Assembly: GCA_963665095.1 (NCBI GenBank)
Contig: OY762069.1
Location: 6,016,001-6,080,000, forward strand
DNA: 64,000 nucleotides
Direction: 5' to 3'
DNA from: an uncultured Desulfobacter sp.
GTDB lineage: Bacteria > Desulfobacterota > Desulfobacteria > Desulfobacterales > Desulfobacteraceae
The translations under genes and the position numbers were made by a program. The notes beneath the pieces were generated by a model, which did not search any database, was not told where the DNA came from, and saw only the letters and a program-made list of their open reading frames with translations. Below are positions 44,690 through 64,000 of the stretch, one piece after another. The first letter of the stretch is position 1, and each line of letters starts with the position of its first letter.

Positions 44690-44744
44690 TTATACGATTT
44701 GAACGTATAAATAAATTGACTATTATACTTTCAAATCGTATAAA
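44690..44744 (+). promoter_or_regulatory. Promoter with two palindromic operators
   Basis: TTATAC-N9-GTATAA at 44690-44710 and 44723-44743; TTGACT (44716)-17 bp-TATAAA (44739). Confidence 0.7.
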
Positions 44745-45922
44745 TGTTTATGGAAGAAATTTTATATCAATACAATCCCTGGTGGGAAGACCCGGTTTTT
44801 AATACTGAAATTATACCCAGGGATCGCTATCTTGACAGGCTTATTCAATATCTGGACAACAAACAGATTATCTCTTTGACAGGCCTGCGGCGTGTCGGCA
44901 AAACAACGTTGATGAAATTGATCATCAAGACGCTGATCTTAAACGGGGTCTCTCCAAAATCTATTTTATATGTCAGCCTGGATGATTACCTTCTTCACCG
45001 GAACAGTATTATTGAAATTATTAATGAATACAGAAAACTTCACAAGCTGAAAGTCGAAGAAAAGATTTACCTTTTTTTAGATGAAGTGATGCATAAAGAA
45101 AATTTTCATATCCAGCTGAAAAATATTTATGACGCCCAGAACACCAAAATTTTTGCTGCATCCTCGTCGGCGTCAATGTTACGGGATAAAAAAGCCAGTT
45201 TGACCGGCCGTTCCATTACTGTTGAAATAAAGCCGTTAAACCTGGAAGAATATCTGCTTTTTAAAGGCATCGTGTTAAAAAAGCGGGATAAGCAATTATA
45301 TAAGTCATACTTTCTCGACTATATCAAAGATGGCGGGATGCCGGAAAATGTATTAAAGCCAAACCGGGAATACCTGATGAACTTAGTCGATGATATCATC
45401 CAGAAAGATATTACAGCGTTTCATGGCTTGAAAAATCATCAAATCCTCAAAGATTTTTTTCTGCTTCTTATGGAACGGAGCGGAAAACAGCTGAGCATCA
45501 ACAAGATAGCAAAAATATTGAACATTTCACCAGATACGTCTAAACGGTATTTAAACTATTTCGAATCCACCTATCTTATACATCTGCTTCCCCGATGGGG
45601 TAAAACAAATCAACAGCTGTTATCAGCAAAAAAAATATATGCTTCGGATCTGGGGATCAAGTATCTTTTTATGGGGGGAAGAGACTTCGGAAGTTATTTC
45701 GAGAATTATATTTATCTGGTATTACGTCATAAGAAAGGCTTGTTTTATTTATATGAAAATACGGTTGAGATTGATTTTTATACAGATGATGAAATTTTAA
45801 TCGAATCCAAATTTTATTCCGAACTTAATGAAAAACAGGCCCTGTTGTTTTCCCAATATCCAGCCCGAAAAAGAATCGTGATTGATTCTGTAGACAAACT
45901 ATCCCTTTTAAATGAGTTGTGA
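44744..45922 (+). CDS. AAA-14 ATPase with DUF4143 (wHTH plus PD-(D/E)xK-like) C-terminus
   Basis: GLRRVGKT, FLDEV, LTGR, GGMPE, KIY..D.G, FEN, EIDF...IESK; start may be ATG 44750. Confidence 0.9.
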   Translation: MFMEEILYQYNPWWEDPVFNTEIIPRDRYLDRLIQYLDNKQIISLTGLRRVGKTTLMKLIIKTLILNGVSPKSILYVSLDDYLLHRNSIIEIINEYRKLHKLKVEEKIYLFLDEVMHKENFHIQLKNIYDAQNTKIFAASSSASMLRDKKASLTGRSITVEIKPLNLEEYLLFKGIVLKKRDKQLYKSYFLDYIKDGGMPENVLKPNREYLMNLVDDIIQKDITAFHGLKNHQILKDFFLLLMERSGKQLSINKIAKILNISPDTSKRYLNYFESTYLIHLLPRWGKTNQQLLSAKKIYASDLGIKYLFMGGRDFGSYFENYIYLVLRHKKGLFYLYENTVEIDFYTDDEILIESKFYSELNEKQALLFSQYPARKRIVIDSVDKLSLLNEL

Positions 45923-49163: not shown

Positions 49164-49772
49164 TTATTCTGTAAACGAATTAACCTGACACAAACCATCT
49201 TCATTTTTAATGAAAAAAATTGGTTTCATGGTTTTATCAGCAAAATCATAAAGCACCAGTTCAGGATGATGGGTATCAAAGGCTTTTCCGAAAAAGAGGC
49301 AAATTGCATTCGAGGCGCATGGAAGTAAATGAATTTTATTAATCCCATAAGAGCATTTAAGGTGATGCAGTAGACGCTGCATGTCAGCCATAAATTCAAT
49401 GCCATTCTTGGGATGGCCTATCGCTCCATTTCCCATGTTATTTGCCTGAATTTTAATCGTTTTTAATTTTAACTGTTTTGCGTATCCGTCAAATAGGGGT
49501 GGGTGGTTGGTAAAACTTAAAGTTAAGACAATTTCGTCTTCGTTTTGTTCTAAATCTTCCATGCCCAATATATCATACGTTTTTTCTGAAGGAGTGTCTG
49601 ATGGCCATGTCCATTGGTTGCCATCCCTGAACCGGAGCATTGGAATGATTTCCTGCTTGTTTCCAATTTTTGCTCCTAAAGCAATTAATTGCGGCATGAG
49701 ACCGAAAGCAAAAAGAGCTGCTCTGAACTGGTTGCGTCCTATCAACGACAATATTTTTTCAGACGCATCTTC
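49164..49772 (-). pseudogene. cap5: CBASS HNH-SAVED effector, 3' part (SAVED C-terminus)
   Basis: ALFAFGLMPQLIALG, W.WP, IHLLPCASNA....FG; in frame with the 5' part once IS21 is removed. Confidence 0.85.
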
Positions 49773-49967
49773 GATTATGTCAGGGCCGTCTTGAAAATGC
49801 AGCCAAATCCCCGGTTTGAAAATGTATGTTCTTAGCTGGTTTTTCTTCTCTTAAAAATCAAATTTAAAAATTTCGTCTTCTTCATTTTTTTCCTTTCTTT
49901 GCCCTCTGCTTTTTTCCGTACATACTGATCTTATTCATGTCTGATTTGAATCGGAGGCAATATGTAG

Positions 49968-50534
49968 ATGGGACTACTCAAGAAAAGAAGGTGCCGAAAT
50001 TGTAGAAGATTATTCGCTCCTAATCCAAGAAATATAGACTCTCAAAAATACTGTTCCAGATCTGAGTGCAGAAAAGCCAGCAAAAGGTGCAGCCAGAAAA
50101 AATGGCTGAACAAGCCTGAAAATCGAAACTACTTTTGTGGGCCTGCCCATGTTGAACGTGTTCAGGAATGGAGAAAGAAGAATCCCGGATATTGGAAGAA
50201 GACCAAAAGCCCAGATACGTTACAAGACTCGATATTGCCCCAACAGGCTGAAAATAAACAGGATTCAACGCAATTCATGGACAATGCGTTACAAGATTTC
50301 TTACGGGCGCAACCTCCTGTCATTATAGGGTTAATCGCCAACTTTACAGGCAGTGCGTTACAAGATGACATCGCTTCCACGCTCCTTCGTATGAAAAAAT
50401 ACGGGCAAGACATTTTATGTTCACAACCCCAAAAAGAAGGAGAGCAAAATGATTGCAAAGGCCCCCATTTTACCATCCAGGGTTCGAAAAACACCCCAAA
50501 GCTTCAGTTGGATCGATCATCGCCTGGTGCGTGA
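49968..50534 (+). CDS. IS passenger protein with Cys-rich N-terminus
   Basis: CRNC...F.P.PR...QKYC...C, W...NP.YW; RBS GGAGG. Confidence 0.8.
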   Translation: MGLLKKRRCRNCRRLFAPNPRNIDSQKYCSRSECRKASKRCSQKKWLNKPENRNYFCGPAHVERVQEWRKKNPGYWKKTKSPDTLQDSILPQQAENKQDSTQFMDNALQDFLRAQPPVIIGLIANFTGSALQDDIASTLLRMKKYGQDILCSQPQKEGEQNDCKGPHFTIQGSKNTPKLQLDRSSPGA

Positions 50535-50835
50535 ACGGCACATTGACAGGTGTACACACTCCCAGTCCGCCCTATATCTGTTTCTGGTGTGTGTGGCCGA
50601 CAGTCAAGGCATCAGCTACTATGGAGATAAGGCGATCATGGATCGGCTGTGCATGGATTCTGATGGCCTGAAGACAGCACGTTCCGGGTTAATACAGAAT
50701 GGGCTGATTGCCTGGCAGAGACCTATTTACCAGGTGCTTGCCCTTGACCCTGCTCCTGGTAAATCAAAACGGCACGGCTCCATGCTGCGTCTTTCAGATA
50801 TTCTAAAAGCAGCAGCGGAGGGCAACCATGATTGA
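50449..50835 (+). CDS. IS passenger protein, probable winged helix
   Basis: FSWIDHRL, ALYLFL..VAD..G.SYY, AR..L...GLIA; RBS AAGGAG. Confidence 0.75.
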   Translation: MIAKAPILPSRVRKTPQSFSWIDHRLVRERHIDRCTHSQSALYLFLVCVADSQGISYYGDKAIMDRLCMDSDGLKTARSGLIQNGLIAWQRPIYQVLALDPAPGKSKRHGSMLRLSDILKAAAEGNHD

Positions 50836-52303
50836 TTACGAAACCTATGTTCAAATCAGAAATTACTTTACCCGAGACGGCCTGACATACAGCCAGATTG
50901 CCAATGCCCTTGATCTGGACCCCAGGACAGTTGCCAGGTGGGCCAACCTGAAAAGGTACCAGCCCAGACAGTCAGCCCCCAGAGAAAGCAAGCTTGATCC
51001 GTATAAGAACGCCATCCTGCATATGCTTGAAAAACATCCCTACAGTTCCCGCCAGATATTTCAACGAATCACCCAGGATGGTTTTGCCGGGGGCATCACC
51101 ATTGTTGAGGATTATGTCAGGAAGGTGCGGCCGCCCAAAACAAAGGCGTATTTGAAACTGAGTTTTGCTCCGGGTGAAGCTGCCCAGGTGGACTGGGGTT
51201 CTTATAGTACAGTAAGGGTGGGCAACACGACCCGGCGGTTGAGCTTTTTTGTGATGGTGATGTGCCACAGCCGCATGATGTACGTTGAGTTCACGGTCTC
51301 CCAGACCATGGAGCATTTTTTAGGCTGCCACCAGAATGCATTTGAGTTTTTTGGAAAGGTGCCGGAAAAGGTCATGGTGGACAATCTCAAATCCGCTGTT
51401 CTAAAAAGACTGCTGGGGAAAGCCCCGGTCTTCAACCCCAGATACCTTGATTTTGCAGATTATTACGGATTTACAATTGTTCCCTGTAATGTGCGCAAGG
51501 GTAATGAAAAAGGCCGGGTTGAAAATGCTGTGGGCTATGTCAAAAAGAATCTGCTCAACGGTCTTGAAATCCCTGATTTTAAGATCATGGAGCCCACCTG
51601 CAAACACTGGCTTGATACTGTCGCCAATGTCAGAACCCACGGAGAGACCGGTCAAAAGCCCGCAGAGATGTATGCCCTGGAATTGCCCCACCTATACCCT
51701 CTGCCGTCAGAACCCTATGATATCGGTGTGGTAAAGCAGGTACGGGCTTCAAGACAGTACAGGGTAGTCATCGATACAAATGCTTACACAGTACCCGCCC
51801 AGCTGGCAGGGGTGGCTTTGACTGCCAAGCTTTACCCTGATCGGATCTGCTTTTACCATGAAGACAAGTTGGTTGCCCGCCATGTCAGATCCTATGGCCG
51901 CAAAAACGACCTTGAAGATCCTGATCACTCTAAAATCCTTTTGAGCCAGCGCAAAAAGGCCAGAGACCAGGCAATTTATATGCGTTTTTTAAGCCTCTCT
52001 GACAAGGCCCGGGAGTATTACAGGCAATTGCAGAACAGGCGGCTTAACGCCTCCCATCATGTACGGCAAATCGTGGCCTTGAGTGAAATCTACTCCCGGG
52101 AACAAGTTGCCATGGCCATTGAAGATGCCTTTAAGTTCTCTGCATTCTCATGTGAATACATCGCCAACCTCCTTGAGCAGCGGGTTCGGTCTCCCCAGGA
52201 GCCCGGAGCCCTGCATGTTACACATAAAGCAGATTTACTGAACCTGACAATCCAGGAGCCTGATCTTAATATTTATACCGCCATAGGAGATAAAAATGCC
52301 TGA
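50828..52303 (+). CDS. istA: IS21 transposase
   Basis: HTH, PGEAAQVDWG, VDNLKSAV, EKGRVE. Confidence 0.96.
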   Translation: MIDYETYVQIRNYFTRDGLTYSQIANALDLDPRTVARWANLKRYQPRQSAPRESKLDPYKNAILHMLEKHPYSSRQIFQRITQDGFAGGITIVEDYVRKVRPPKTKAYLKLSFAPGEAAQVDWGSYSTVRVGNTTRRLSFFVMVMCHSRMMYVEFTVSQTMEHFLGCHQNAFEFFGKVPEKVMVDNLKSAVLKRLLGKAPVFNPRYLDFADYYGFTIVPCNVRKGNEKGRVENAVGYVKKNLLNGLEIPDFKIMEPTCKHWLDTVANVRTHGETGQKPAEMYALELPHLYPLPSEPYDIGVVKQVRASRQYRVVIDTNAYTVPAQLAGVALTAKLYPDRICFYHEDKLVARHVRSYGRKNDLEDPDHSKILLSQRKKARDQAIYMRFLSLSDKAREYYRQLQNRRLNASHHVRQIVALSEIYSREQVAMAIEDAFKFSAFSCEYIANLLEQRVRSPQEPGALHVTHKADLLNLTIQEPDLNIYTAIGDKNA

Positions 52304-53030
52304 TCTTGAGAAATGCCTGTCCCACTTAAAACTACCTTATATCAGGGAAAACTATGAGTCAGTGGCTACCCTGGCTGCCCAGAAGCAATGGAGCCACGTT
52401 CAATATCTATCAGAGCTTGCCAGGCATGAATCACTACTGCGCCATGATAAAACCATCCAGCGCCGTATCCGTATGGCCAAGTTCCCGGTAATCAAAACCC
52501 TGGACCAGTTCAACTGGTCATGGCCCAGAAAAATCAATCAGGCTCAGATCCAGAATCTGTTCAGACTCAAGTTCATTGAAGAAAAGGGTAACATTATCGT
52601 GATCGGCCCGGTCGGTGTTGGGAAAACACATATTGCGACTGCTTTAGGTTACCAGGCCTGCCTGAAAAACCATACGGTTCTGTTCTCTTCTGCCATTGAT
52701 ATCGTCAACAATCTGGTGGCAGCCCAGAAGGCGGGTCAGTTAAAGCAGGAACTGAGAAAATACCTCAAGCCAACTTTGTTGATCATGGATGAACTGGGCT
52801 ACCTGCCCATTGACAAGATTGGGGCAGACCTGTTGTTCCAAATTATCAGTCAGCGCTATGAGCAAGGAGCCATCATAATAACCACAAACCGGGTGTTCAA
52901 AGATTGGCCGGAGATCTTCAACAATGACATGACATTAACATCAGCTTTGCTGGACAGGCTTCTTCACCACACCGAGCCTGTGGTCATTGAGGGTAAGAGT
53001 TTTAGAATGAAAGATGTGACGGAAGAATAA
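52296..53030 (+). CDS. istB: IS21 helper ATPase
   Basis: GPVGVGKTH, DELGYLP, ITTN, LLDRLLHH, GKSFR. Confidence 0.96.
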   Translation: MPDLEKCLSHLKLPYIRENYESVATLAAQKQWSHVQYLSELARHESLLRHDKTIQRRIRMAKFPVIKTLDQFNWSWPRKINQAQIQNLFRLKFIEEKGNIIVIGPVGVGKTHIATALGYQACLKNHTVLFSSAIDIVNNLVAAQKAGQLKQELRKYLKPTLLIMDELGYLPIDKIGADLLFQIISQRYEQGAIIITTNRVFKDWPEIFNNDMTLTSALLDRLLHHTEPVVIEGKSFRMKDVTEE

Positions 53031-53129
53031 CAAAGCCGAGGCCGGTCTACATGCATCTGGAGGCCGGCCCTTTAATCGCCTACATTTTTAAACCGGGAGA
53101 TTTATGACATGTTCACGCCCCGCCTGACA

Positions 53130-54152
53130 GATTATTTTGGGCCAGAGAGAATGCAGTTGATCCGGTGACATAGTTTTTAAGAAATTATCATTGTCGCTAA
53201 TATCCATAAGACCGGTAGAATCCATTCTCCACTTCATTTTTGCCATACTCTGGTTGATCTGAATGTTACTTGGGGCTGCAATCGATGCCCTTTGCACTGG
53301 CCATGAAATTGAAAGCGCAGGGACCGGCTCATATGATAATCCATTGAGCAGCCTTGATACTGTTGTACAAAAATCTGCTCTCATTCTTGAAAGCCGATTT
53401 GCCGGGTAATCTATCGCCGCAATTTTATCAACCAGTCGGTGGTGTTTATCACACAATAAAAGAATGTTGGAAGGATCATCAGATAGATGATCCGACATTA
53501 CCACAATACCCCGTGGACCATTTTCAGATGAAGCGACATTATGGGCCAGGTATGCATAATTGCCTTCGTAACCTGTGGTTTCATCCATTGTTAGATTTGC
53601 CCCACAACCTTCAAACATGCAGCGACCATGGGCTTCTATATACACTGTCGTCTTGGTGTCTTTTGAGAAGCCCTTTCCACGCCCAGACTCTGGCCCTTTA
53701 AAAAATATTTTTTCAATTTGGTCCAACTCCTTGGAAATCCCCAATTCAATTGATTGCGCCTCGGCTTTTTTCCACAAGGAATCTATATCTTCCAAAGACT
53801 GGATTTGTTCCTGGCTGAAAAATTGCCCTTGGCAGGCCCTGAAAATTATTGGAGCTGTTTTATCAGAAATAAAAAGCCGTATGGCCGTTAAAGTCTCTTC
53901 AGGGGAACCAAGACAGAGGCGAAAGACAGCAACGACACGATCTGTTTGAAGCAGCGTAATCAAGGTTGAGCATTGTTTTCCAATATTTTGATCAATTAAA
54001 ATTCCCACATGAGACCATTGGATATGTTCAGCCACTAATTTATGATGTGCTTCAACAAGGCCCAATTCATCAAGCGGAGGATGAATCGTCTGAACATAAA
54101 TAACTTCTGTTTTGTTTGTTTTACCAACCATCAGCGTTGCAGTCTCCTTCAT
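53130..54152 (-). pseudogene. cap5: CBASS HNH-SAVED effector, 5' part
   Basis: GRCMFEGC, AHNVASSENGPRG, NILLLCDKHHRLVD; start overlaps the cap3 stop (ATGA). Confidence 0.88.
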
Positions 54153-54643
54153 GCTTTTATTTTGTATTCCCCAACAACCGTAAGCGAATTCCTGATTATT
54201 TTTTTCGTTCCCATCCAACAACGGATATGGGTCCGTCCAACAATTATAAAAAATAAATGCCTGCCATCATAAACTGATTTATTAAGAGCTTTGAACCAGT
54301 CTGATTTATCTATTTTAGAGTAATGAGGGTAGTCTTCTGGATGGGTGTGCCATAGCCCGACATAGGTAGATATTTTATTGGATTCCTGCCAGATTTCTTG
54401 AACCAGCTTTTCATGGGCGCTTGATCTGTAAAACATACACGCGCCCTGTTTATCTCCTGTTTGTGGCGGCGTAAATTGGTCTATCACCATCCGGCCACCA
54501 CGGATTAAATGTTTCCCGATTAAAGCACCGCCTGATTCAGGAAACGTGCGATCCGTTTGCTGAAAGCGGCATATCTGCTCTAAAAGCGTGTGGTCAAATC
54601 GCACTTTGCCAAACGTTTGTATGTTTATGATCCAGTCATCCAT
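54149..54643 (-). CDS. cap3: CBASS Cap3 JAB/MPN peptidase
   Basis: ESGG, YVGLWHTHPE, SKID, FIIVG; ATG 54643 overlaps the original cap2 3' end. Confidence 0.92.
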   Translation of the reverse strand: MDDWIINIQTFGKVRFDHTLLEQICRFQQTDRTFPESGGALIGKHLIRGGRMVIDQFTPPQTGDKQGACMFYRSSAHEKLVQEIWQESNKISTYVGLWHTHPEDYPHYSKIDKSDWFKALNKSVYDGRHLFFIIVGRTHIRCWMGTKKIIRNSLTVVGEYKIKA

Positions 54644-54728
54644 TATGGCACACCCCACAACTACAGGCTTTGTCATAGGCAGTTTCTTCTATCATGGCCA
54701 TTCCGTAATATCTTTTAGTCAACCCAAC
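54636..54728 (-). pseudogene. cap2: Severed 3' end of cap2
   Basis: (VG)LTKRYYGMAMIEETAYDKACSCGVCHNG-stop, in frame across the TSD. Confidence 0.88.
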
Positions 54729-54866
54729 TGAGAATGATCACAAAAAATCATGGAAAAATTAAAGATAATTTGCAAGATATGCCAGGGATGAGGCAGAAGC
54801 TCCCCCGTTTATCTCGCAAATAATCAATGGAACTTCTGCCCCTATTACCCTAACAGGGCAGGAGAT

Positions 54867-55442
54867 ATGCTATCAGAACTTATTAAAAACAAAAATCTTT
54901 TTTTCCATCTTTACGAAATCGATAAAAATACAGCAAAACAGTACAGACAGTTGCCTTGTCCGCATTGTGGAGGCCCCTTATATTTCAGCAATTACATGCG
55001 CAAGCCCCGGGGAGAGCCTGAGGGCGTGCCGGAGGAATTCTTTATTCAGTTCAGCCTATGTTGTGGAACCGAAGGGTGTCGCAAAAGATTGATGCCGCCG
55101 TCCTGCCGTTTTCTGGGGAGAAAAGTCTACTGGTTTGCAGTTATTCTGTGTGTTTTAACAGACTGGCAAAATACCAATGAAAAAATCACCGTTTATGATT
55201 TGTCCATACGAACTGGCATTAGCCGGAACACAATAAACCGCTGGCTTGCCTTTTTTCAGGATACATTTCCAGTGAGCCGAACCTGGCGAAGGCTTCGGGG
55301 GCAGATATCCGCTGGTGTCAGTAACAGCCGTCTGCCGTCAAGTTTCATCAATTATTGCCGGGCGGTGAAATCCAACGCCGAAAACGCACTTGTATCAAGC
55401 CTGATAATCTTATCAGGCGGGTCCAAAATCAGGGCCGGATAA
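54867..55442 (+). CDS. Zn-ribbon plus HTH accessory protein of the transposon
   Basis: CPHCGG, SLCC...CRKR, GISRNTINRW. Confidence 0.8.
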   Translation: MLSELIKNKNLFFHLYEIDKNTAKQYRQLPCPHCGGPLYFSNYMRKPRGEPEGVPEEFFIQFSLCCGTEGCRKRLMPPSCRFLGRKVYWFAVILCVLTDWQNTNEKITVYDLSIRTGISRNTINRWLAFFQDTFPVSRTWRRLRGQISAGVSNSRLPSSFINYCRAVKSNAENALVSSLIILSGGSKIRAG

Positions 55443-55548
55443 TCTCGCGCAGAGGATGAACATAGACAAATATATGCAGGCTGTTTTACCACCTGATTTC
55501 AGACGTTGATCCGAAATTTTAACCTGAAATTAAAAAGGAGCCTGATTT

Positions 55549-56994
55549 ATGAGTGGTAAAACACAGCACCCGGCAGACCTGTGGGCATTATTTCGCTTTT
55601 CGGTTATCGGCGGTTTACTGGCACGCCCTCCGGCAAAGGGAGAGTTGCAAAATGAACTGACCCGGCTCGCAGGTCAAATCTATTCTCATCCTGTGACGAA
55701 CAAACCGACCTGTTTTCATTTTTCCACAATTGAGGCCTGGTATTACAGGGCAAAAAATTGCCAGGACCCAATTCTGGCTCTGGGCCGTAAAGTTCGTTCA
55801 GATATGGGCAAATCCACAGCATTGAATGCTGAATTGATCCGCCTTCTTGGTGTCCAGTACAACACTTATCCGCAATGGAGCTATCAGCTTCATTGCGACA
55901 ACCTGGCAGCTGAAATCGCTGAACAGGGCCTGTGTGAGAATCCGCCGTCCTATGCAAGTGTGAGAAGGCGTATGGTTGAACGGGGTTGGAGAAAAAAGGC
56001 TTCCAAGAACAAAAATCAAACATCCGGACAGAAATCAGCTTTTAAGCGATTAGAAACGTATGAAGTCCGTAGTTATGAAACCGAAAACATCCATGAATTA
56101 TGGCATCTGGACTTTCACGAATGCAGCAGGCGCGTGGTGGACGAAAAAGGTCAGTGGCATACGCCCAAGGCATTGTGCATTCTTGATGATCGCTCCCGTC
56201 TGTGTTGTCATATTCAATGGTATTTGAATGAAACGGCAGAGGTTTTGATCCACGGCTTGTCCCAGGCGTTTTACAAAAGAGGGCTTCCCAGAGCCTTGAT
56301 GACAGATAATGGTTCTGCCATGATTGCTCATGAAACCGGCAACGGACTTAAACGATTGGGCGTCAGTCATGAGACCACGTTGCCATACTCGCCCTATCAA
56401 AATGGGAAGCAGGAAGCCTTTTGGGGTACACTTGAAGGCCGTTTGATCGCCATGCTGAGCCGGATGGATTCTTTGACCCTGGTATATTTAAATCAGGTCT
56501 CCCAGGCCTGGATCGAGATGGAATACAACAAGTCAACCCATGATGAAATTCATATGTCGCCATTGCAATGCGCCCTTGACGGCAAGGATGTGTCACGTCC
56601 TGCACCGGAACCTGAACAGCTTCAATTTTCGTTTACAGCCTGTGAATCCAGAAAACAGCGTCTGTCCGATGGTACCATCTCTTTGATGGGCATCCGGTTT
56701 GAAATCCCTTCACGGTTTAATCATATCCAGCGTCTTCATGTCTGTTTTTGCTCCTGGGATAAATCGGTTGCCTGGCTGATAGATAAACGAACCGGAAATA
56801 AGCTTGCCGCAATTTATCCCCAGGACAAGACAAAGAATGCTTCAGCAATCCGTCGTATCAAATCCACTCCGGATGAAATTAACCCTGGCCATGAAACCCT
56901 GTCCGGATCAGAACCGGCCCTGCTTAAAAAGCTCTTGTCCGATTATGCAGCAACCGGAATGCCTTGTGCCTACTTGCCAATGGAGGAAAAGTGA
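55549..56994 (+). CDS. DDE transposase (rve/Mu-like)
   Basis: ALFRFSVIG, LWHLDFH, LDDRSR, TDNGS, QNGKQE, YN...H. Confidence 0.93.
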   Translation: MSGKTQHPADLWALFRFSVIGGLLARPPAKGELQNELTRLAGQIYSHPVTNKPTCFHFSTIEAWYYRAKNCQDPILALGRKVRSDMGKSTALNAELIRLLGVQYNTYPQWSYQLHCDNLAAEIAEQGLCENPPSYASVRRRMVERGWRKKASKNKNQTSGQKSAFKRLETYEVRSYETENIHELWHLDFHECSRRVVDEKGQWHTPKALCILDDRSRLCCHIQWYLNETAEVLIHGLSQAFYKRGLPRALMTDNGSAMIAHETGNGLKRLGVSHETTLPYSPYQNGKQEAFWGTLEGRLIAMLSRMDSLTLVYLNQVSQAWIEMEYNKSTHDEIHMSPLQCALDGKDVSRPAPEPEQLQFSFTACESRKQRLSDGTISLMGIRFEIPSRFNHIQRLHVCFCSWDKSVAWLIDKRTGNKLAAIYPQDKTKNASAIRRIKSTPDEINPGHETLSGSEPALLKKLLSDYAATGMPCAYLPMEEK

Positions 56995-57818
56995 TGAACA
57001 GCAAACGATTATTGGCTTATTATGGATTGAAGTACAATCCTTTTTTACCAAATATTCCTGTGGACTCATTATGGCATCCACCCCGGATGGAGGCATTTAT
57101 TACACGCCTTGAAAATATGACCATGAACGGTGGATTTGCATTAATCGCCGGTGAACCCGGTCTTGGCAAATCCAAGACACTACAGGCGATTGCCCATCAG
57201 CTTGGCAAGCTTGATGAAGTCGTTGTCGGCGTTATGGAGCGCCCCCAAAGCAGCGTGGCCGATTTCTATCGGGAAATGGGGACACTGTTTGGTGTCAATT
57301 TGAGTCCGGCCAACCGTTACGGAGGGTTCAAAGATCTGCGGCAACGATGGAAAAATCATATTAAAACAACCCTGTTCAGACCCGTCCTGCTCATTGATGA
57401 GGCTCAGGAAATGCTTACCGGATGCCTGAATGAGCTTCGGTTGCTCAACAGTATGGATTTTGACTCCCAGAATTTATTGACCACCATTATCTGTGGTGAT
57501 ACCCGGCTGCCGGAACGGTTCAGAACCAGTGCATTGGTAGCCCTGGGGAGTCGACTCCGGTTCCGGTTAAAATTGGATCCTTATACCCGGGAAGAATTGT
57601 TGGATTATATAGCGCATTGCCTAAATCAGGCCGGAGCTCCTCAACTCATGACAAAACCTTTAATCACCGCTTTGGTAGAGCACTGTACAGGAAACTTACG
57701 GGTCCTCAATAATATGTCGGCAGAACTGCTTGAAGTGGGCGTTCAAAGAGAGCTGCCGCAACTGGATGAGAAACTTTTCATAGAGCTTTTTTCACTGAAA
57801 CCGTCGCCAACCAGATAA
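56994..57818 (+). CDS. ExeA/TnsC-like AAA ATPase
   Basis: YGLKYNPF, GEPGLGKS, LLIDEAQ, GNLR. Confidence 0.92.
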   Translation: MNSKRLLAYYGLKYNPFLPNIPVDSLWHPPRMEAFITRLENMTMNGGFALIAGEPGLGKSKTLQAIAHQLGKLDEVVVGVMERPQSSVADFYREMGTLFGVNLSPANRYGGFKDLRQRWKNHIKTTLFRPVLLIDEAQEMLTGCLNELRLLNSMDFDSQNLLTTIICGDTRLPERFRTSALVALGSRLRFRLKLDPYTREELLDYIAHCLNQAGAPQLMTKPLITALVEHCTGNLRVLNNMSAELLEVGVQRELPQLDEKLFIELFSLKPSPTR

Positions 57819-57829
57819 GAGGTATAAAA

Positions 57830-58072
57830 ATGACAATCAATGAAACACAACTTGAAAAAACAATGGCTGAAATTGTCGACGAGCTGGGCAATCTGGTCAT
57901 GGAGTTGATCCTTGTCAGTTTAAAAAAAATAAACTCGGAAAATCATCTTTTGACAGAATTGCTGGAGATCAAACAAGAGGAACAAAGAGAAAATGAATTT
58001 TATGGTTTTGGTGAAACGGAGCCGGGACATCCTGGGGAGGAAACCCGGCAAGGGATAGCCAAAAGCAGGTAG
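57830..58072 (+). CDS. Small acidic hypothetical protein inside the transposon
   Basis: RBS GAGG, 11 bp after the ATPase stop. Confidence 0.6.
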   Translation: MTINETQLEKTMAEIVDELGNLVMELILVSLKKINSENHLLTELLEIKQEEQRENEFYGFGETEPGHPGEETRQGIAKSR

Positions 58073-58266
58073 CATTGAATAATGCGCCGGGGGAAGCGGG
58101 GTTGACCTGCTTCCCCTTTCTGTATTATTCAAGCTTTCCTGCTCATGCCTTAAAAAACCCAATAAAATCAGTCGGAGCGCAGCGACATCTGCTAATCATT
58201 GAAAATACAGTTATGCCTTTCCCTGATTTATCCTGATTGTCGCTCCATTGATTATCGTGCTTCCTC

Positions 58267-59889
58267 TCACCCAACTCCGGTAATATTGGGATTTTTCCAA
58301 CTGACCACCTTGTTGAGCGCATTATATTTTATGGTTTCAATACAAAGCCTTGTCGTTATCATGGCGGTCTGGGATGAGTCCAAATAAGAAAACGGGGTGA
58401 AAACCCCTGCACAGCCTGTTAAATTTTTGGTCAGATGTTGGCCCGGCATGACAAGGTTCAACGGTGATGCCAATGAAAATTTACCTGCGCGCCAGAATTG
58501 GCATTCGTAACAACTTGAATCAAGATTAACAGATAGCGCATGGCCTCCGGCACTGGCGGCTTCGTTCCAGCAATAAACAATCTTTTTAAAATGGGCGGTT
58601 TTGAATGCTTTATTTAAATACAGGTTCGCTGCCGGTGATCCTACAGCGGAAACAATGACATCCGCATTAATCAAAACTCTTTCACTCAAAATGCTCTCAG
58701 CTCGCTTGGGAATGGCATCAACTTGGATATATGGAAGCTCTGTTTTCAAAAAATCGGCAAGCACATTCACTTTGCGAAATAAAGGGACTTTCCCAGTTTC
58801 TTGTACAGGTTCATAAGAAAGATATCTTCCTCCCAACCTGTGGCGGTAAATATTATCAATTTCTAAAGAATCATTATCAATGAGGATAAGGTGACCAACC
58901 CCCGCTTTGGCCAGCATCACCGAAATTTCAGACCCCACTGACCCACAGCCGATTATGGCAACGCTTGAATTTAAAAGTTTTGTATCCGCACCCCCACGTT
59001 CAAGAAGGTAGCCTTTGTCATGCCTGTTGATCAAATAGACTTTAACTTTCGAGTCCTGGGATTTTTCTTTCAGGGGATGAGGTCTGGGCTTGGGGGCTGT
59101 CAGCCGAAATAAAATAAGGCTTCTCATCCCTTTAGACCTTGGGAAGCCAAACAAAATATAATGCTCCCTGGCAGAAGATAATTTGCTTATAATCTTGTCT
59201 ATCTTCTTTAAAAACGGAGCTTCAACGAGCGACAAAATGTTATAAATATATTTTGAATCAAGATTATTGACGCCCTGTGGCGGCAGCATAGGATACTGCG
59301 TTGGTATATAAACGGCTTTAATGGTTTGAAACGCATTGATTTTTGTAAAATTGCTGTATTGTTCCGGCAGAGCCTGTCCGTCATCATAAACAAAAAAGGG
59401 TTCTGCGGCAGTCTGCTTTCCATTTGTGGGTCGCCAGATTTTCAAATACACCTTTTGGGGAATATCTGCCCCTATGACGTTTCCTGGAATACGATCACTG
59501 ATCGGTTCGAAAAAGCCCTCATACTCGTCAGTTAATTCCATCCTGTTAACTTTTAAAGAACCGAAATCCAGGAGATCAACAGCAGATTCAATAACCGTAC
59601 TGATGATATCCTTCGGGCGCGTATAATCGACGATGATAGAATCGCTTTCATCAATGCATAGCAGGCCTGTGGCATTCACATGGGGAATAGTGCCAATCAT
59701 GTCCTCTTCCAACAAAAAGACATGTGGTAGGGAGTATGGAAACAGATCGTCAAAAAAGAATCGGGTGCACCATCTTCTATTTTTCCCTTGCAGGGTGAAA
59801 TAAAACTGGGTTTCCTTATGATGAGAGGCATCTATCAGTAAAGGATGTACAAATGCTTCCACCAAGGCCTTTAACGGGCCTTCATTCAT
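58267..59889 (-). pseudogene. cap2: CBASS Cap2 E2-E1 fusion, C-terminally truncated
   Basis: E2 PHVNATGLLC; E1 IIGCGSVGS, DNIYRH, CYEC, catalytic GCAGVFTPF; stop codon supplied by the transposon end. Confidence 0.92.
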
Positions 59890-60890
59890 GCATTGTTTCC
59901 CGTAGTGAGGTATGGCTTTTTATTTGAAGCTCTGGCCTCCTCTTCTTCAACCAGCGGGAACTTATCCCCAAAAACCTGTCTGAAAATTTTACTTGCCTTG
60001 TGCCCATCCGCTTCATCCCGCGCCGCTTCAAGAGCCTCAACCAACGCTTCAATCTTATCGTAAAAGATATTGGTCTGAATTAAGGTCATTTTTTCATAAA
60101 CATTGCTGAAAGGCTCAACCGGTAAATCCGCATTTATCGATTGTTTGTATGCGCCTGATTGCTCATCCCATACCATAAAAAAGCTGTTCTTGATGGCGGA
60201 TACAATGGCAATCAGCGACTCAAGGTCATTCCCCTCCTTGTAGTTAAAATTCTTACCCGCCTGAATAGTCAGTCCAATAGACGGCGGCATGGCATTGCCA
60301 TCAACTGAAAAATGTTTTTCCTTCCAGGCTTTCAGGTAGCGAACGCATCGGCGGTATTGGCTTCTTTTTTCAGCTGTGTCAGAAATATTATTTACCCAAT
60401 CAATGAGTTGTTTGGGAGACGACTTTTCCCAGGTCGGGTCCGTGGCATGTTCTTTTCCCCAGGCAATGTGGTAATCGTCTGAATTGGAGGCATAAACAGC
60501 AAGATCTACATGGTATCCGTCAGAATATTTTACTGTGATACATGGGCGGCGGATAACAACGGTTCTATTGTGCCTGGTCAATTTATCCCGTATCAATTTT
60601 TTGAGTTTAACCGGCTCATATTCCTGATTTGTAATGTCAAAAACGATTCCAACATCAATGTCGTAATCATTATTGGGCGGGATTATTCCTGTATGCATGG
60701 CATAAGACCCCTGCCCGAAATATGAAAAAACCAGTTTTTTATCTTTGCCCGGAATTTTCTCATCTTTCAAGCCTTGCTTTAACTCCTTAATCAAAAGCTC
60801 CCGTTTATCCCGAAGTTTCTGCTCCTCTTCATAGGTACCCAGCTTGATTGCATCATGAAATTTAATAAATTCATTTTGTAAATTAGGCAT
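59886..60890 (-). CDS. CD-NTase (cGAS/DncV-like cyclic oligonucleotide synthase)
   Basis: QGSYAMHT, DYDIDVG, PCITV, HVDLAVY, RYLKAW, FGDKFP; first gene of the cap2-cap3-effector operon. Confidence 0.93.
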   Translation of the reverse strand: MPNLQNEFIKFHDAIKLGTYEEEQKLRDKRELLIKELKQGLKDEKIPGKDKKLVFSYFGQGSYAMHTGIIPPNNDYDIDVGIVFDITNQEYEPVKLKKLIRDKLTRHNRTVVIRRPCITVKYSDGYHVDLAVYASNSDDYHIAWGKEHATDPTWEKSSPKQLIDWVNNISDTAEKRSQYRRCVRYLKAWKEKHFSVDGNAMPPSIGLTIQAGKNFNYKEGNDLESLIAIVSAIKNSFFMVWDEQSGAYKQSINADLPVEPFSNVYEKMTLIQTNIFYDKIEALVEALEAARDEADGHKASKIFRQVFGDKFPLVEEEEARASNKKPYLTTGNNA

Positions 60891-60991
60891 ATGACCTTAC
60901 ACTCTCCAAATTGATTAAAGTTAACTAAATTCAAAATAATGCGAATACTTTCTTTGTCAATGTTGAGAATGCAAATAAATATAATTTTATT

Positions 60992-61042
60992 TTTTATCCT
61001 ACGATAAAATAGTATTTTGTGATAAATATACCTCTATATTTA
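60992..61042. promoter_or_regulatory. Candidate WYL-regulator operators
   Basis: TTTTATC-CTAC-GATAAAA (60992-61009) and TAAATATA-CCTC-TATATTTA (61023-61042); AT-rich, so chance is possible. Confidence 0.45.
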
Positions 61043-61069
61043 ATAAAATAAAAATTTATAAGGGTTCAG

Positions 61070-61948
61070 ATGCGCTGGAGCATAAAACAACGAATTGAAT
61101 TTATAGAAACTCGATTATACTGGGAAGGCAAAATCAGCAGAAAAGACCTTACCAACTACTTTGACATTTCTATTCCCCAAGCAACTAAAGACATTAAAGC
61201 CTATATTGAAGAGGCCCCTGGTAATATCCGCTATGACAACAAGGCGAAACAATACGTTGCCACAGAAGAATTCCAACCAATCCTGATTCCTGCGGACAGT
61301 GAATCTTATCTGAAAAGGCTGTTGACAAGTGATGTGGAACAAGGTGATTTTTTCTGCGGTAATATGCCTTCATTTTATAGCGCCCCATGTATTCAACGAA
61401 AAATTGATCCTCAAGTACTTAAATATATTTTAAGAAACATAGAAGACGGTAACGCAGTTTATATTGAATATCAGTCCATGAGTGGACCAGGACCGGGCTG
61501 GAGATGGATTACCCCTCATGCCATTGGGTTTGATGGGTTTAGATGGCATACCAGGGCATTTTGCCACAATGATCGAAAATTTAAAGATTTTAATCTTGGA
61601 AGAATCTATAAAACCAGGGAATCCAAGCCTCATACCATAGACGTTTCCATTGATTTCGAATGGGTTACTGATATTACTTTTAATATCGAACCCCATCCGG
61701 ACCTTACCAGGGAACAAAGAAAAGGCATTGAACATGATTACGGGATGACCAACGGTTTTCTTGAATTCGAAGTCAGAGGTGCCTTTGTTTTCTATATGCT
61801 TAAAAGGCTAAATCTTGGACCGGGCCACGAACTAAACGCCCCCATTCAGCAGCAGATAGTCCTTAAAAACTTTGAACAAATTGAAAATCAACGGCAAATG
61901 CTTGAAAAAATGTCGGCAAACAAAATTGAAGAAACCATACCAAGGTGA
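61070..61948 (+). CDS. capW: wHTH-WYL-WCX transcriptional regulator (CapW/BrxR-like)
   Basis: R..FIE..LYWEG.I.R.DL...F.IS..QA..D...Y, YQSMS, PHA...DGFRWH.RAFC, FKDF.LGR, DYGM. Confidence 0.9.
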   Translation: MRWSIKQRIEFIETRLYWEGKISRKDLTNYFDISIPQATKDIKAYIEEAPGNIRYDNKAKQYVATEEFQPILIPADSESYLKRLLTSDVEQGDFFCGNMPSFYSAPCIQRKIDPQVLKYILRNIEDGNAVYIEYQSMSGPGPGWRWITPHAIGFDGFRWHTRAFCHNDRKFKDFNLGRIYKTRESKPHTIDVSIDFEWVTDITFNIEPHPDLTREQRKGIEHDYGMTNGFLEFEVRGAFVFYMLKRLNLGPGHELNAPIQQQIVLKNFEQIENQRQMLEKMSANKIEETIPR

Positions 61949-62005
61949 TAATAAAGGCATATCTAACAAATTTTCATAATCGGAGCTGTTAATAAGGAAT
62001 TGTCA

Positions 62006-64000
62006 ATGAAAACCATTCAAAGTGCATGTGAATTAGATCCCAAAGCCCTGGATATCAATGTTGGGGATCAGATTGAAAAGCTGGATGAAGTGATCAGCGA
62101 TACCGACGGCCGGGAATATTTTAAGAAAACCTTTATTACCGAGGGTATGAAAGTACTGCTGACAAAAGGAATGGCCAGATTGGCCGGAAAATCAGCAGAT
62201 TCCATTTTCCATCTCAAGCAGGCCATGGGCGGTGGTAAAACCCATTTAATGGTTGGCTTTGGGCTTCTGGCAAAGGATGCGGACCTTCGAAACGCGCTCA
62301 TCGGCACCATGCCTTATCAGGGGGACTTTTCTGCTGCAAAAGTAGCCGCGTTTAACGGTCGTAACAATCCGGGGAACTATTTTTGGGGGGAACTGGCAAG
62401 GCAGCTGGAAAAAGAGATATTATTTAAAGAGTATTGGGAGTCCGGAGCCAAAGCCCCTGATGAACAGGCCTGGCTTTCGTTGTTTGAAGGGGATGAGCCG
62501 GTCCTTATTTTAATGGATGAAATGCCTCCCTATTTTCATTATTACGCCACCCAGAGTTTAGGTCAGGGTACAGTGGCGGATGTTGCCACCCGTGCATTTT
62601 CCAACATGCTGACCGCTGCCCAGAAAAAGAAAAACGTCTGCATTGTGGTTTCGGACCTTGAGGCCGCCTATGATACCGGCGGGAAACTGATTCAGCGTGC
62701 GTTGAATGACGCTTCCCAGGAACTGGGCCGGGCAGAAATCAGTATTACACCTGTCAACCTTGAATCCAATGAAATTTACGAAATATTGCGGAAACGGTTA
62801 TTTGTAAGCCTGCCGGACAAAAGTGAAATCAGTGAAATTGCCGCAGCCTACGGTGATAGACTTGCCGAAGCAGCCAAGGCAAAAACCGTTGAGCGAAGCG
62901 CCGAGGCCCTGGCCCAGGAAATAGAGTCCACTTATCCTTTTCATCCCAGCTTTAAAAGCATTGTGGCTCTATTTAAAGAAAACGAAAAATTCAAGCAGAC
63001 CCGGGGCCTTATGGAGTTGGTGTCCCGGCTTCTTAAATCGGTATGGGAAAGCAAAGAAGATGTCTATCTCATGGGGGCACAGCATTTTGACCTTTCTATC
63101 CACGAAGTCCGGGAAAAACTGGCTGAAATTTCATCCATGCGGGATGTCATTGCCAAAGATCTTTGGAACTCATCGGACAGTGCCCATGCCCAGGTCATTG
63201 ACATAAACGCCGGTAACAATTATGCCAAACAGGCAGGAACTCTGCTGCTTTTGGCAAGCCTTTCCACTGCTGTTAATTCAGTAAAAGGGCTGACGGAAAT
63301 GGAAATGCTTGAATGTCTCATAGATCCCTTGCATCAGGCTGGGGTCTATCGGGCGGCGTTTGAACAACTGCAAAAAGATGCCTGGTATCTGCATCAAACC
63401 CAGGAAGGCAGAAACTATTTTGACCACCAGGAAAATCTGACCAAAAAACTTCGGGGATATGCGGACAGGGCGCCCCAACCTAAAGTGGATGAATTGATCT
63501 GTCATCGCTTAAATGAGATGTATAAACCCACCACCAAAGAAGCCTATGAAAAGATTTTGCCCCTGCCGGAGATGGATGATGCCCAGGCCGCGTTGAAATC
63601 TTCCAGAACACTGCTCATTATCAACCCGGACGGAAAAACCCCGCCTGGCGTCGTGACAAAATTTTTTGAAGAACTGGTTAATAAAAATAATGTACTGATC
63701 CTCACCGGAGACAAAAGCTCCATGGCGGATGTGGATAAAGCCGCCCGTCATTTCTATGCGGCCCAAAAGGCGGATAATGAAATTTCAGCTTCCCATCCCC
63801 AGCGCAAGGAGCTGGATGAAAAAAAGGCCAATTATGAGCAGGATTTCCAAGCCACCATCCTGTCCGTATTTGATAAACTGTTTTTCCCCAGTAACAAAGC
63901 AGGTGAAGACCTCTTACGGCACAAGGCCCTGGATCTTTCATACCCCTCAGGGGAACCGTTTAACGGGGAGCGGCAGATTATTAAAACATTAACCGCAGAT
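62006..64000 (+). CDS. DUF499 ATPase, anti-phage-associated (partial, runs off window)
   Basis: Manual translation MKTIQSACELDPKALDINVGDQIEKLD..., QAMGGGKTH, ILMDEMPPY, YEILRKRLF, YPFHP, FKQTRGL; RBS AAGGA. Confidence 0.9.
   Translation, partial: MKTIQSACELDPKALDINVGDQIEKLDEVISDTDGREYFKKTFITEGMKVLLTKGMARLAGKSADSIFHLKQAMGGGKTHLMVGFGLLAKDADLRNALIGTMPYQGDFSAAKVAAFNGRNNPGNYFWGELARQLEKEILFKEYWESGAKAPDEQAWLSLFEGDEPVLILMDEMPPYFHYYATQSLGQGTVADVATRAFSNMLTAAQKKKNVCIVVSDLEAAYDTGGKLIQRALNDASQELGRAEISITPVNLESNEIYEILRKRLFVSLPDKSEISEIAAAYGDRLAEAAKAKTVERSAEALAQEIESTYPFHPSFKSIVALFKENEKFKQTRGLMELVSRLLKSVWESKEDVYLMGAQHFDLSIHEVREKLAEISSMRDVIAKDLWNSSDSAHAQVIDINAGNNYAKQAGTLLLLASLSTAVNSVKGLTEMEMLECLIDPLHQAGVYRAAFEQLQKDAWYLHQTQEGRNYFDHQENLTKKLRGYADRAPQPKVDELICHRLNEMYKPTTKEAYEKILPLPEMDDAQAALKSSRTLLIINPDGKTPPGVVTKFFEELVNKNNVLILTGDKSSMADVDKAARHFYAAQKADNEISASHPQRKELDEKKANYEQDFQATILSVFDKLFFPSNKAGEDLLRHKALDLSYPSGEPFNGERQIIKTLTAD

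What the first reader, a model, noticed from the sequence alone, without database searches (positions are those of the whole stretch)
49164..60890. Type II CBASS operon broken by two insertions and fully reconstructable
Seen: CD-NTase > cap2 > cap3 > HNH-SAVED with overlapping stop/start codons. Removing IS21 (49778-53129) and one GATTA gives LWPKII|EDASEKILSL, a 543-aa frame. Removing 54729-58269 and one CCCAAC gives ITGVG|LTKRYY...CSCGVCHNG*, a 568-aa Cap2. No other stops or frameshifts appear in these ORFs. Known: this is the type II CBASS layout. Inference: both insertions are recent, and loss of a costly suicide system may have been selected.
Basis: partly seen in the sequence, partly recalled or inferred. 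Interest (0 to 1): 0.8.

Follow-up and report, generated by a model that had tools for sequence, protein, structure and literature searches.

The report
Phage-suicide operon knocked out by transposons
A known kind of bacterial anti-phage suicide operon (type II CBASS) is cut in two places by jumping genes that have many near-identical copies in this genome, while uncut versions exist in other samples; it is likely dead, and likely one casualty of a genome-wide burst of jumping that has also split five other defence genes.

Summary
Both elements, their target duplications, and the 543-aa and 568-aa frames after excision are as stated. The joined proteins align without internal gaps to intact homologues 90-91% identical, and a contig from another study runs across both empty sites. 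The operon is a CapW-flanked type II CBASS: clade-B-like cyclase, Cap2, Cap3, long-form Cap5. IS21 lands inside the SAVED sensor; a Tn6049-like transposon cuts off Cap2's last two invariant cysteines. Both insertions are recent (10 and 12 copies at 99.9-100%). Selection for loss is not shown: 21 of 72 mobile-element blocks in this genome have a neighbour as close, and 71% sit in AT-rich DNA. But the genome's second CBASS, Hachiman, DISARM, an Argonaute and PDC-S05 are also split: 5 of 14 split AT-rich genes are defence genes against 29 of 225 intact ones (p 0.03-0.08). IS knock-out of defence genes, including of Cap5's SAVED domain, is in print. The scan had noted both elements at other copies in this genome, but not this operon. 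Real, tidy, mostly known.

The parts
59886..60890 (-). CD-NTase (cyclase), 334 aa, intact; GQGS, DxD and third-Asp motifs present; ends in Ala
   Evidence: Pfam PF21654/SMODS, PADLOC Cyclase E 5e-114; closest structures 8YSD-series E 4e-64 and 7LJO E 1e-21; motifs
58270..59889 (-). cap2 (E2-E1 fusion), first 540 codons; stops at the first codon of the inserted element
   Evidence: Prok-E2_B + ThiF, PADLOC E1-E2 E 6e-175
54729..58269 (+). Tn6049-like transposon, 3541 bp, TGAGA...TCTCA ends; ORFs 191 aa (54867-55442), DDE transposase 481 aa (55549-56994), ExeA/GspA-like AAA ATPase (56994-57818), 80 aa (57830-58072)
   Evidence: 12 copies 100% identical plus one 96.7%; transposase 48.6% identical to the C. 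metallidurans CH34 element with the same four-gene order; Tn6049 described as 3.5 kb with gspA ATPase
54723..54728 (.). 6-bp target duplication, left copy (right copy 58270-58275)
54636..54728 (-). cap2 tail, last 28 codons plus duplicated target, holding C562 and C565
   Evidence: both cysteines invariant in 117 homologues
54149..54643 (-). cap3 (JAB isopeptidase), 164 aa from the likely start, intact
   Evidence: Prok-JAB, PADLOC JAB E 1.5e-60, NCBIfam Cap3 E 6e-25 below cut-off; HxH-x7-S-x2-D seen in the translation
53130..54152 (-). long-form Cap5 effector, 5' part: ~150-aa N-terminal domain, HNH nuclease, first part of SAVED; reads 14 codons into the IS and stops
49778..53129 (+). IS21-family element, 3352 bp, TGTCAGG...CCTGACA ends; two extra ORFs (188 and 128 aa) upstream of istA (50828-52303) and istB (52296-53030)
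   Evidence: NCBIfam transpos_IS21 and IstB over cut-off; 10 full copies 99.94-100%
49773..49777 (.). 5-bp target duplication, left copy (right copy 53130-53134)
49164..49777 (-). Cap5 effector, 3' part: remainder of the SAVED domain
   Evidence: Pfam SAVED E 1e-30; only SAVED match in the genome
60891..61069 (.). 179-bp AT-rich gap between the divergent cyclase and capW genes, the likely shared promoter; an imperfect 18-bp palindrome at 60992-61009 is a candidate CapW site (no chance control run)
   Evidence: promoter-like sites in the region are not above chance
61070..61948 (+). CapW-type WYL repressor, 292 aa, intact, divergent from the CBASS and upstream of an intact DUF499 defence operon
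   Evidence: phmmer to S. maltophilia CapW 7TB6 E 1e-59, BrxR 7T8K E 3e-39

Best explanation
This is a type II CBASS anti-phage operon that two multicopy transposons have cut, one inside the effector's SAVED sensor and one near the end of cap2, and it is likely dead, likely as an ordinary casualty of a recent genome-wide transposon burst in AT-rich, dispensable DNA. Before the cuts it would have worked as known systems do (inferred from homology): CapW represses the operon until single-stranded DNA appears; the clade-B-like cyclase makes a cyclic nucleotide (product not determined); Cap2 conjugates the cyclase's C-terminus and Cap3 reverses this; the signal closes SAVED domains into a tetramer and the HNH domains destroy DNA. 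Now (positions shown, effects inferred) IS21 splits the sensor after residue 340, so no effector can be switched on and the genome has no other SAVED protein; the Tn6049-like element removes Cap2's last 28 residues with two invariant cysteines and puts 3.5 kb of oppositely oriented genes between the promoter and cap3/cap5. Either cut probably suffices, so the second was probably neutral; the order cannot be told. Loss was tolerated, as for five other defence genes here; an active benefit of loss is possible but not shown.
For: Junctions and frames; gapless alignment to intact homologues; empty-site contigs in X12, X7, X8; zero departures at columns at least 90% conserved among 110 effector homologues and two among 117 Cap2 homologues, one shared with the closest homologue, so little decay since; elements at 99.9-100% in 10 and 12 copies, with only 68-73% relatives in 24 other genomes of the genus; 40 of 72 element blocks have a neighbour within 5 kb and 21 within 1.6 kb against 10% and 3% for uniform placement, and 71% lie in DNA under 45% GC against 17% of random positions; operon GC 38-42%; two other genes (HamB, an RHS-repeat gene) are also hit twice; SAVED fold spans roughly residues 268-525 of the model, matching Cap5 structures; only one SAVED match in the genome.
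Against: Defence genes are somewhat over-represented among split AT-rich genes (5 of 14 outside this operon vs 29 of 225 intact; Fisher p 0.034, length-weighted p 0.08), and both CBASS systems of the genome are hit, which pure chance in AT-rich DNA explains less well. A laboratory escape mutant from Cap5 killing carried an IS in the same domain (PMC12141522, passages read). Some close pairs of blocks may come from duplications rather than separate insertions, which inflates the clustering. Loss of function, polarity and the zinc role of the lost cysteines (recalled from ThiF/MoeB) were not tested.
Confidence: 0.62

Rival explanations
1. The first insertion was positively selected because the armed operon killed its own cells without phage, for example when CapW was released by single-stranded DNA from damage or from the transposition burst itself; the second insertion followed neutrally.
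For: CapW senses ssDNA from DNA repair (PMC11662680, abstract); IS3 insertion into the SAVED domain rescued cells from Cap5 killing (PMC12141522, passages); IS insertions into cas genes follow double-strand breaks (PMC10359306, abstract and section 14). Here the split systems are CBASS beside CapW, a second CBASS beside an HTH-Peptidase_M78 regulator, Hachiman (a DNA-damage sensor, PMC12278908 abstract), DISARM and an Argonaute; enrichment p 0.03-0.08.
Against: The grouping is post hoc on six systems; many systems look intact, including the DUF499 operon behind the same capW gene, Menshen, Gabija, BREX, Hma, type III RM and CRISPR I-C genes; enrichment is equally expected from relaxed selection; capW itself is intact.
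Confidence: 0.24
2. The operon keeps partial activity: the intact cyclase still signals to another receptor, or the truncated HNH piece or Cap2 still works.
For: Cyclase, cap3 and capW are intact; the truncated Cap2 keeps its E2 and E1 catalytic-position cysteines C78 and C493; an intact patatin effector of the second CBASS remains in the genome.
Against: Cap5 needs ligand-bound SAVED for activation (10.1101/2021.08.31.458341, PMC12141522, passages) and the sensor is split; no other SAVED in the genome; signal compatibility with the patatin effector is unknown.
Confidence: 0.08
3. The insertions act as a reversible off switch, with precise excision restoring the operon in part of the population.
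For: Perfect target duplications allow exact restoration in principle; little decay.
Against: Two independent precise excisions would be needed; no empty-site joint in X1, X3 or X6, whose contigs match the window (contigs cannot show absence); X6 contigs identical to the window run off into other sequence at further places in cap2, cap3 and the effector.
Confidence: 0.03
4. The insertions are assembly artefacts: repeats misplaced into an intact operon.
For: Public contigs overlap the junctions by only 28-29 letters.
Against: Exact 5- and 6-bp duplications at both sites; the same overlaps in two studies (X1, X3); no empty-site contig in those runs; single-contig assembly.
Confidence: 0.02

Closest known systems
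Type II CBASS (CD-NTase, Cap2, Cap3, effector; 10.1101/2022.03.31.486616, passages read)
   Same: Four-gene set, E2-E1 Cap2 with both catalytic-position cysteines, JAB Cap3, cyclase ending in a small residue (Ala).
   Different: Effector is last and is a Cap5 nuclease, not CapV; cap2 and the effector are interrupted.
Cap5 HNH-SAVED effectors (PDB 7RWK, 7RWM, 8FMH, 8YSQ; 10.1101/2021.08.31.458341, PMC12141522, PMC12804361, passages read)
   Same: Residues about 150-525 match Cap5 by sequence (E 4e-17) and fold (Foldseek E 1e-20); Cys/His zinc and catalytic positions invariant.
   Different: Extra ~150-aa folded N-terminal domain (pLDDT 92) with no Pfam or Atlas hit and only a middling match to the uncharacterised TT1805 (Z 6.1, rmsd 4.1, 117 aligned). 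Long Cap5 forms with ~130-aa N-terminal insertions are mentioned in PMC12141522; whether they are this family was not seen (supplementary figure). Paired here with a clade-B-like cyclase plus Cap2/Cap3 rather than stand-alone CdnG.
CdnB cyclases (PDB 7LJO, named CdnB in PMC12804361; 8YSD series, likely Deinococcus wulumuqiensis CdnB by inference from 8YSQ)
   Same: Best structural relatives by sequence, E 4e-64 and 1e-21.
   Different: Product not determined; no tree was built.
CapW (PDB 7TB6; 10.1101/2022.01.04.474952 passages, PMC11662680 abstract)
   Same: wHTH-WYL-WCX-sized protein, E 1e-59, divergent from the CBASS across a short promoter gap.
   Different: Also heads an intact DUF499 operon with Menshen-like genes inside; binding site not shown.
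Tn6049 of Cupriavidus metallidurans CH34 (PMC2864759, PMC4739549, passages read)
   Same: 3.5 kb, four ORFs in the same order, DDE transposase 48.6% identical, GspA-like ATPase, many identical copies, liking for islands.
   Different: Different end sequence; exact duplications of 3-7 bp in 12 of 13 copies here.
IS-inactivated defence systems (PMC10359306 abstract and section 14; PMC12141522 passages)
   Same: Natural IS insertions in 12 kinds of defence cluster besides CRISPR-Cas; IS3 in the SAVED domain of cap5 in a lab escape mutant.
   Different: Here a natural, doubly hit CBASS with intact sister alleles, in a genome where six defence loci are split.

Membership tests
Type II CBASS | CD-NTase with intact catalytic motifs | tested here: met
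Type II CBASS | Cap2 E2-E1 fusion next to the cyclase | tested here: met
   PADLOC E1-E2 E 6e-175; full length only after excision
Type II CBASS | Cap3 JAB isopeptidase | tested here: met
Type II CBASS | Cyclic-nucleotide-sensing effector in the operon | tested here: met
   HNH + SAVED in two pieces
Type II CBASS | Phage defence and cyclase conjugation | not testable with these tools
   needs experiment; predicted lost in this allele
Cap5 | N-terminal HNH with zinc finger joined to C-terminal SAVED | tested here: met
   (on the intact 90% homologue P0002)
Cap5 | Activation by 3'2'-cGAMP and tetramer formation | not testable with these tools
   ligand unknown
Clade B CD-NTase | Phylogenetic placement in clade B | tested here: inconclusive
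   nearest solved relatives are CdnB-type (PMC12804361); no tree built
CapW | WYL repressor divergent from CBASS | tested here: met
CapW | Palindromic operator over the -10 box | tested here: inconclusive
   imperfect palindromes in an AT-rich gap, not over the best -10 candidate, no chance control
IS21 family | istA DDE transposase plus istB ATPase | tested here: met
   NCBIfam NF033546 and NF038214 over cut-off
IS21 family | TG...CA imperfect inverted ends and short target duplication | tested here: met
   34 of 50 end bases complementary; exact 5-7 bp duplication in 8 of 13 sites
Tn6049-like transposons | About 3.5 kb, small ORF - DDE transposase - GspA-like ATPase - small ORF | tested here: met
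Tn6049-like transposons | Same terminal repeats as Tn6049 | tested here: not met
   ends TGAGA...TCTCA here vs the 12-bp repeats quoted in PMC4739549; a relative, not Tn6049 itself

The most novel reading that the evidence does not exclude
A transposon burst disarms the very defences it would trigger: in this genome the systems that sense damaged or single-stranded DNA (CapW-controlled CBASS, a second CBASS beside an HTH-peptidase regulator, Hachiman, DISARM, Argonaute) have been knocked out by the multiplying elements because transposition intermediates set them off, making this locus the wild counterpart of the laboratory Cap5 escape mutant and a case of mobile elements selecting their own host's immunodeficiency.
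Probability: 0.12. Interest if true: 0.7.

Novelty: new member of a known kind. Interest (0 to 1): 0.3.

Why it matters
The locus itself is a known system broken in a known way. Its value is practical and comparative: a freshly broken operon with intact 93-99% identical sister alleles gives a clean before/after pair; annotation tools that need whole genes would miss or miscall it; the long-form Cap5 with an uncharacterised N-terminal domain paired with a Cap2/Cap3 system is a ready test subject; and the genome, with six split and many intact defence loci after one recent burst, is a usable data point on whether abortive-infection systems are lost by drift or by selection.

Tried and rejected
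Looked for the empty-site allele in named genomes: none of 24 other genomes of the genus holds the operon DNA, the best Cap2 relatives among 40 relatives are 29-33% identical, and the genome-contig scan gave only 12 distant cyclases at 23-29%. No empty-site joint in X1, X3, X6; contigs cannot show absence. Parts of cap3 and cap2 lack cover in X6, and the element bodies lack cover in X7: holes are not evidence. Function of the N-terminal domain: no Pfam hit at E 0.5, no Atlas hit, no Foldseek hit at E 0.001, no PDB sequence match to that part; its 36 relatives among 1.84 billion proteins are this family, short pieces that may be fragments, or two repeat artefacts; the strand-helix order reminded me of restriction-nuclease folds (recalled), but no such structure was listed, so this is inconclusive. 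Promoter and terminator scans were at chance level. The Poisson estimate that two hits in 4.8 kb are rare (0.1%, or 2% in AT-rich DNA) was rejected as a null because insertions cluster far more than Poisson. Three of the 14 AT-rich split frames (sites 920745, 1262587, 3315923) gave no clean spanning frame on re-check; I kept them in the denominator, which is conservative. No complex prediction was run.
Full report
Observation. The minus strand carries cyclase (60890-59886), cap2, cap3 and an HNH-SAVED effector. Two plus-strand elements interrupt it. IS21 occupies 49778-53129 between two GATTA copies; a 3541-bp element occupies 54729-58269 between two CCCAAC copies. Removing each with one duplication in a script gives 543 and 568 codons without further stops. 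Overlaps are 4 nt cyclase/cap2, 8 nt cap2/cap3 and 4 nt cap3/effector, though the closest effector homologues begin 7 codons later.

The joined effector matches P0002 at 482 of 536 residues with no internal gap, and the joined Cap2 matches P0121 at 515 of 568 with no gap. Six pairs of intact Cap2 and effector homologues come from contigs of identical length, which suggests intact operons elsewhere (inference). Of six runs laid (of 22 listed), X12 has one 3131-nt contig lying across both empty sites with exactly the predicted cuts, 92.8% identical; X7 bridges the cap2 site (0 differences in 159 and 5 in 462 letters); X7 and X8 join across the effector site with the expected 70 letters between. 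X1 and X3 show the inserted form, with contigs overlapping each junction by 28-29 letters, just below the tool's 31-letter bar; X1 may be the source.

What the system is. The cyclase has its GQGS, DxD and third-Asp motifs and ends in Ala; its nearest solved relatives are the 8YSD series (E 4e-64) and 7LJO, the latter called CdnB in PMC12804361 (passages), so it is clade-B-like; no tree was built and the product is unknown. Cap2 and Cap3 define type II (10.1101/2022.03.31.486616, passages). The effector is Cap5 from about residue 150 on, by sequence and by a confident model of the intact homologue (pLDDT 92.6; Foldseek E 1e-20 to Cap5 structures). It carries an extra folded ~150-aa N-terminal domain (pLDDT 92) with no family hit and one middling structural match, the uncharacterised TT1805 (Z 6.1, rmsd 4.1, 117 aligned; next Z 3.1). 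PMC12141522 (passages) mentions Cap5 proteins with ~130-aa N-terminal insertions, suggested to bind DNA; its supplementary figure, which would show whether it is this family, I did not see. Divergent from the cyclase lies an intact CapW (E 1e-59 to 7TB6), followed by an intact DUF499 operon enclosing Menshen-like nsnABC genes. The operon is 38-42% GC against 48.7% for the genome and is not found in 24 other genomes of the genus: an acquired island (inference).

What the cuts do. IS21 enters after residue 340, within the structural SAVED domain (about 268-525 in the model), so the ligand sensor itself is split; Cap5 needs ligand-bound SAVED to activate its HNH domains (10.1101/2021.08.31.458341 and PMC12141522, passages), and the genome has no other SAVED match. 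The second element ends cap2 at codon 540 and strands C562 and C565, invariant in 117 homologues, which with C460/C463 likely form the E1 zinc site (recalled from ThiF/MoeB, not tested); it also likely blocks transcription of cap3 and the effector. It is a Tn6049 relative: transposase 48.6% identical to a four-gene, 3.5-kb element of C. metallidurans CH34. Recency is well supported: identical copies, perfect duplications, no departure at conserved effector columns and two in Cap2, one shared with the closest homologue; other genomes of the genus hold only 68-73% relatives of the full elements.

Was loss selected? I catalogued multicopy elements: 114 pieces of 14 seed families, 90 kept (two unverified families and short pieces dropped), merged to 72 blocks; eight further families were confirmed as transposases. 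With elements removed, 40 of 72 blocks have a neighbour within 5 kb and 21 within 1.6 kb, the spacing seen here, against 10% and 3% under uniform placement (0 of 5000 simulations); 71% lie in DNA under 45% GC against 17% of random positions. Some close blocks may be duplications. A double hit is therefore ordinary here; HamB and an RHS-repeat gene are also hit twice. Against pure chance: of 32 blocks with a long frame across them I annotated 20 genes (leaving out this operon, shared genes, frames of 250 codons or fewer and one inside an element); five are defence genes: the cyclase of the genome's second CBASS (patatin, cyclase, E2), Hachiman hamB, DISARM drmA, a class II Argonaute and PDC-S05. 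All five are among the 14 under 45% GC. As control I scanned 225 of the 438 intact AT-rich ORFs of 250 aa or more, taken from the 40 densest clusters, not at random: 41 hit PADLOC at 1e-25, 31 at 1e-50, 29 after dropping two RtcR-like activators. 5 of 14 against 29 of 225 gives p 0.034, and 0.08 weighted by length. This is a modest excess that relaxed selection explains as well as selected loss. Gabija, BREX, Hma, type III RM, CRISPR I-C, Uzume, AbiL-like, SoFic, DUF499 and Menshen genes scanned were unsplit.

What is known. IS insertions into 12 kinds of defence cluster besides CRISPR-Cas are reported (PMC10359306, abstract and section 14; its Fig. 8 and S22 list was not seen, so CBASS may be among them). 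An escape mutant from Cap5 killing had IS3 in the SAVED domain (PMC12141522, passages). CapW responds to single-stranded DNA (PMC11662680, abstract) and Hachiman to DNA damage (PMC12278908, abstract), which motivates the bold reading that the burst removed the systems it would trigger; it is post hoc, on six loci, and I give it 0.12. Two full-text searches listed no paper on natural multi-system loss of this kind in one genome, but only listings were seen and the library is partial.

Verdict. Observation confirmed; interpretation partly supported. A new member of a known kind, broken in a known way; interest 0.3. The host is called Desulfobacter in an earlier scan note (not tested here).

Noticed in passing
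G000:C1:1845098-1849368 (L054:7098-11368): Second CBASS of the genome (patatin effector, DncV-like cyclase, E2), cyclase split by an IS4-type element with a 9-bp duplication; divergent HTH-Peptidase_M78 regulator beside it.
   Followed up: partly
G000:C1:3300805-3313349 (L097): Hachiman hamB in three pieces (IS21 copy and an IS3-type element), hamA matching only 153 of 271 profile positions, and a PDC-S05/RhuM-family gene split next door.
   Followed up: partly
G000:C1:2570829-2574369 and 1525986-1527311: Class II Argonaute split by the same Tn6049-like element (imperfect duplication); DISARM drmA split by an IS4-type element.
   Followed up: partly
window 62000-64000 and L023:1001-13707: Intact DUF499/DUF3780/DUF1156/PLD-helicase system with Menshen-like nsnABC nested inside, directly behind capW, so one repressor may control two defence operons.
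   Followed up: partly
window 53685-61349, run X6: Contigs of X6 identical to the window run off into other sequence at about 54384 and 58373 and end with 26-30 foreign letters at 58868, 59745 and 61288, suggesting further insertions in the same operon and in capW in a sister population.
   Followed up: no
window 53688-54131: Conserved, confidently folded N-terminal domain of the long Cap5, with invariant W, D and W, resembling only the uncharacterised TT1805.
   Followed up: yes
window 49968-50835: Two extra ORFs in the IS21 element (cysteine-rich 188 aa; 128 aa, 58% identical to hypothetical proteins on Caballeronia replicons), without Pfam or NCBIfam hits.
   Followed up: partly
window 57995-58191: A 197-nt stretch near the right end of the Tn6049-like element is 80% identical to a stretch in another 3.1-kb multicopy element (14 matches); earlier scan notes treat it as a structured RNA module.
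   Followed up: no
G000:C1:945584-952479, 1461652-1468551, 5487466-5492344: Copies of this IS21 are themselves interrupted, twice by the Tn6049-like element and once by an IS3-type element.
   Followed up: partly
window 59050-59052: Cap2 residue 280 is Ser where 92% of homologues and the closest one have Trp: a possible first step of decay.
   Followed up: no
window 49164-49806, run X7: X7's allele is about 99% identical in cap2, cap3, capW and DUF499 pieces but about 95-96% in the effector, suggesting faster change or exchange of the effector.
   Followed up: no
window 44744-45922: AAA_14/DUF4143 ATPase matching PADLOC PDC-S01 (E 1e-71), 3 kb beyond the effector, extending the AT-rich island.
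   Followed up: no
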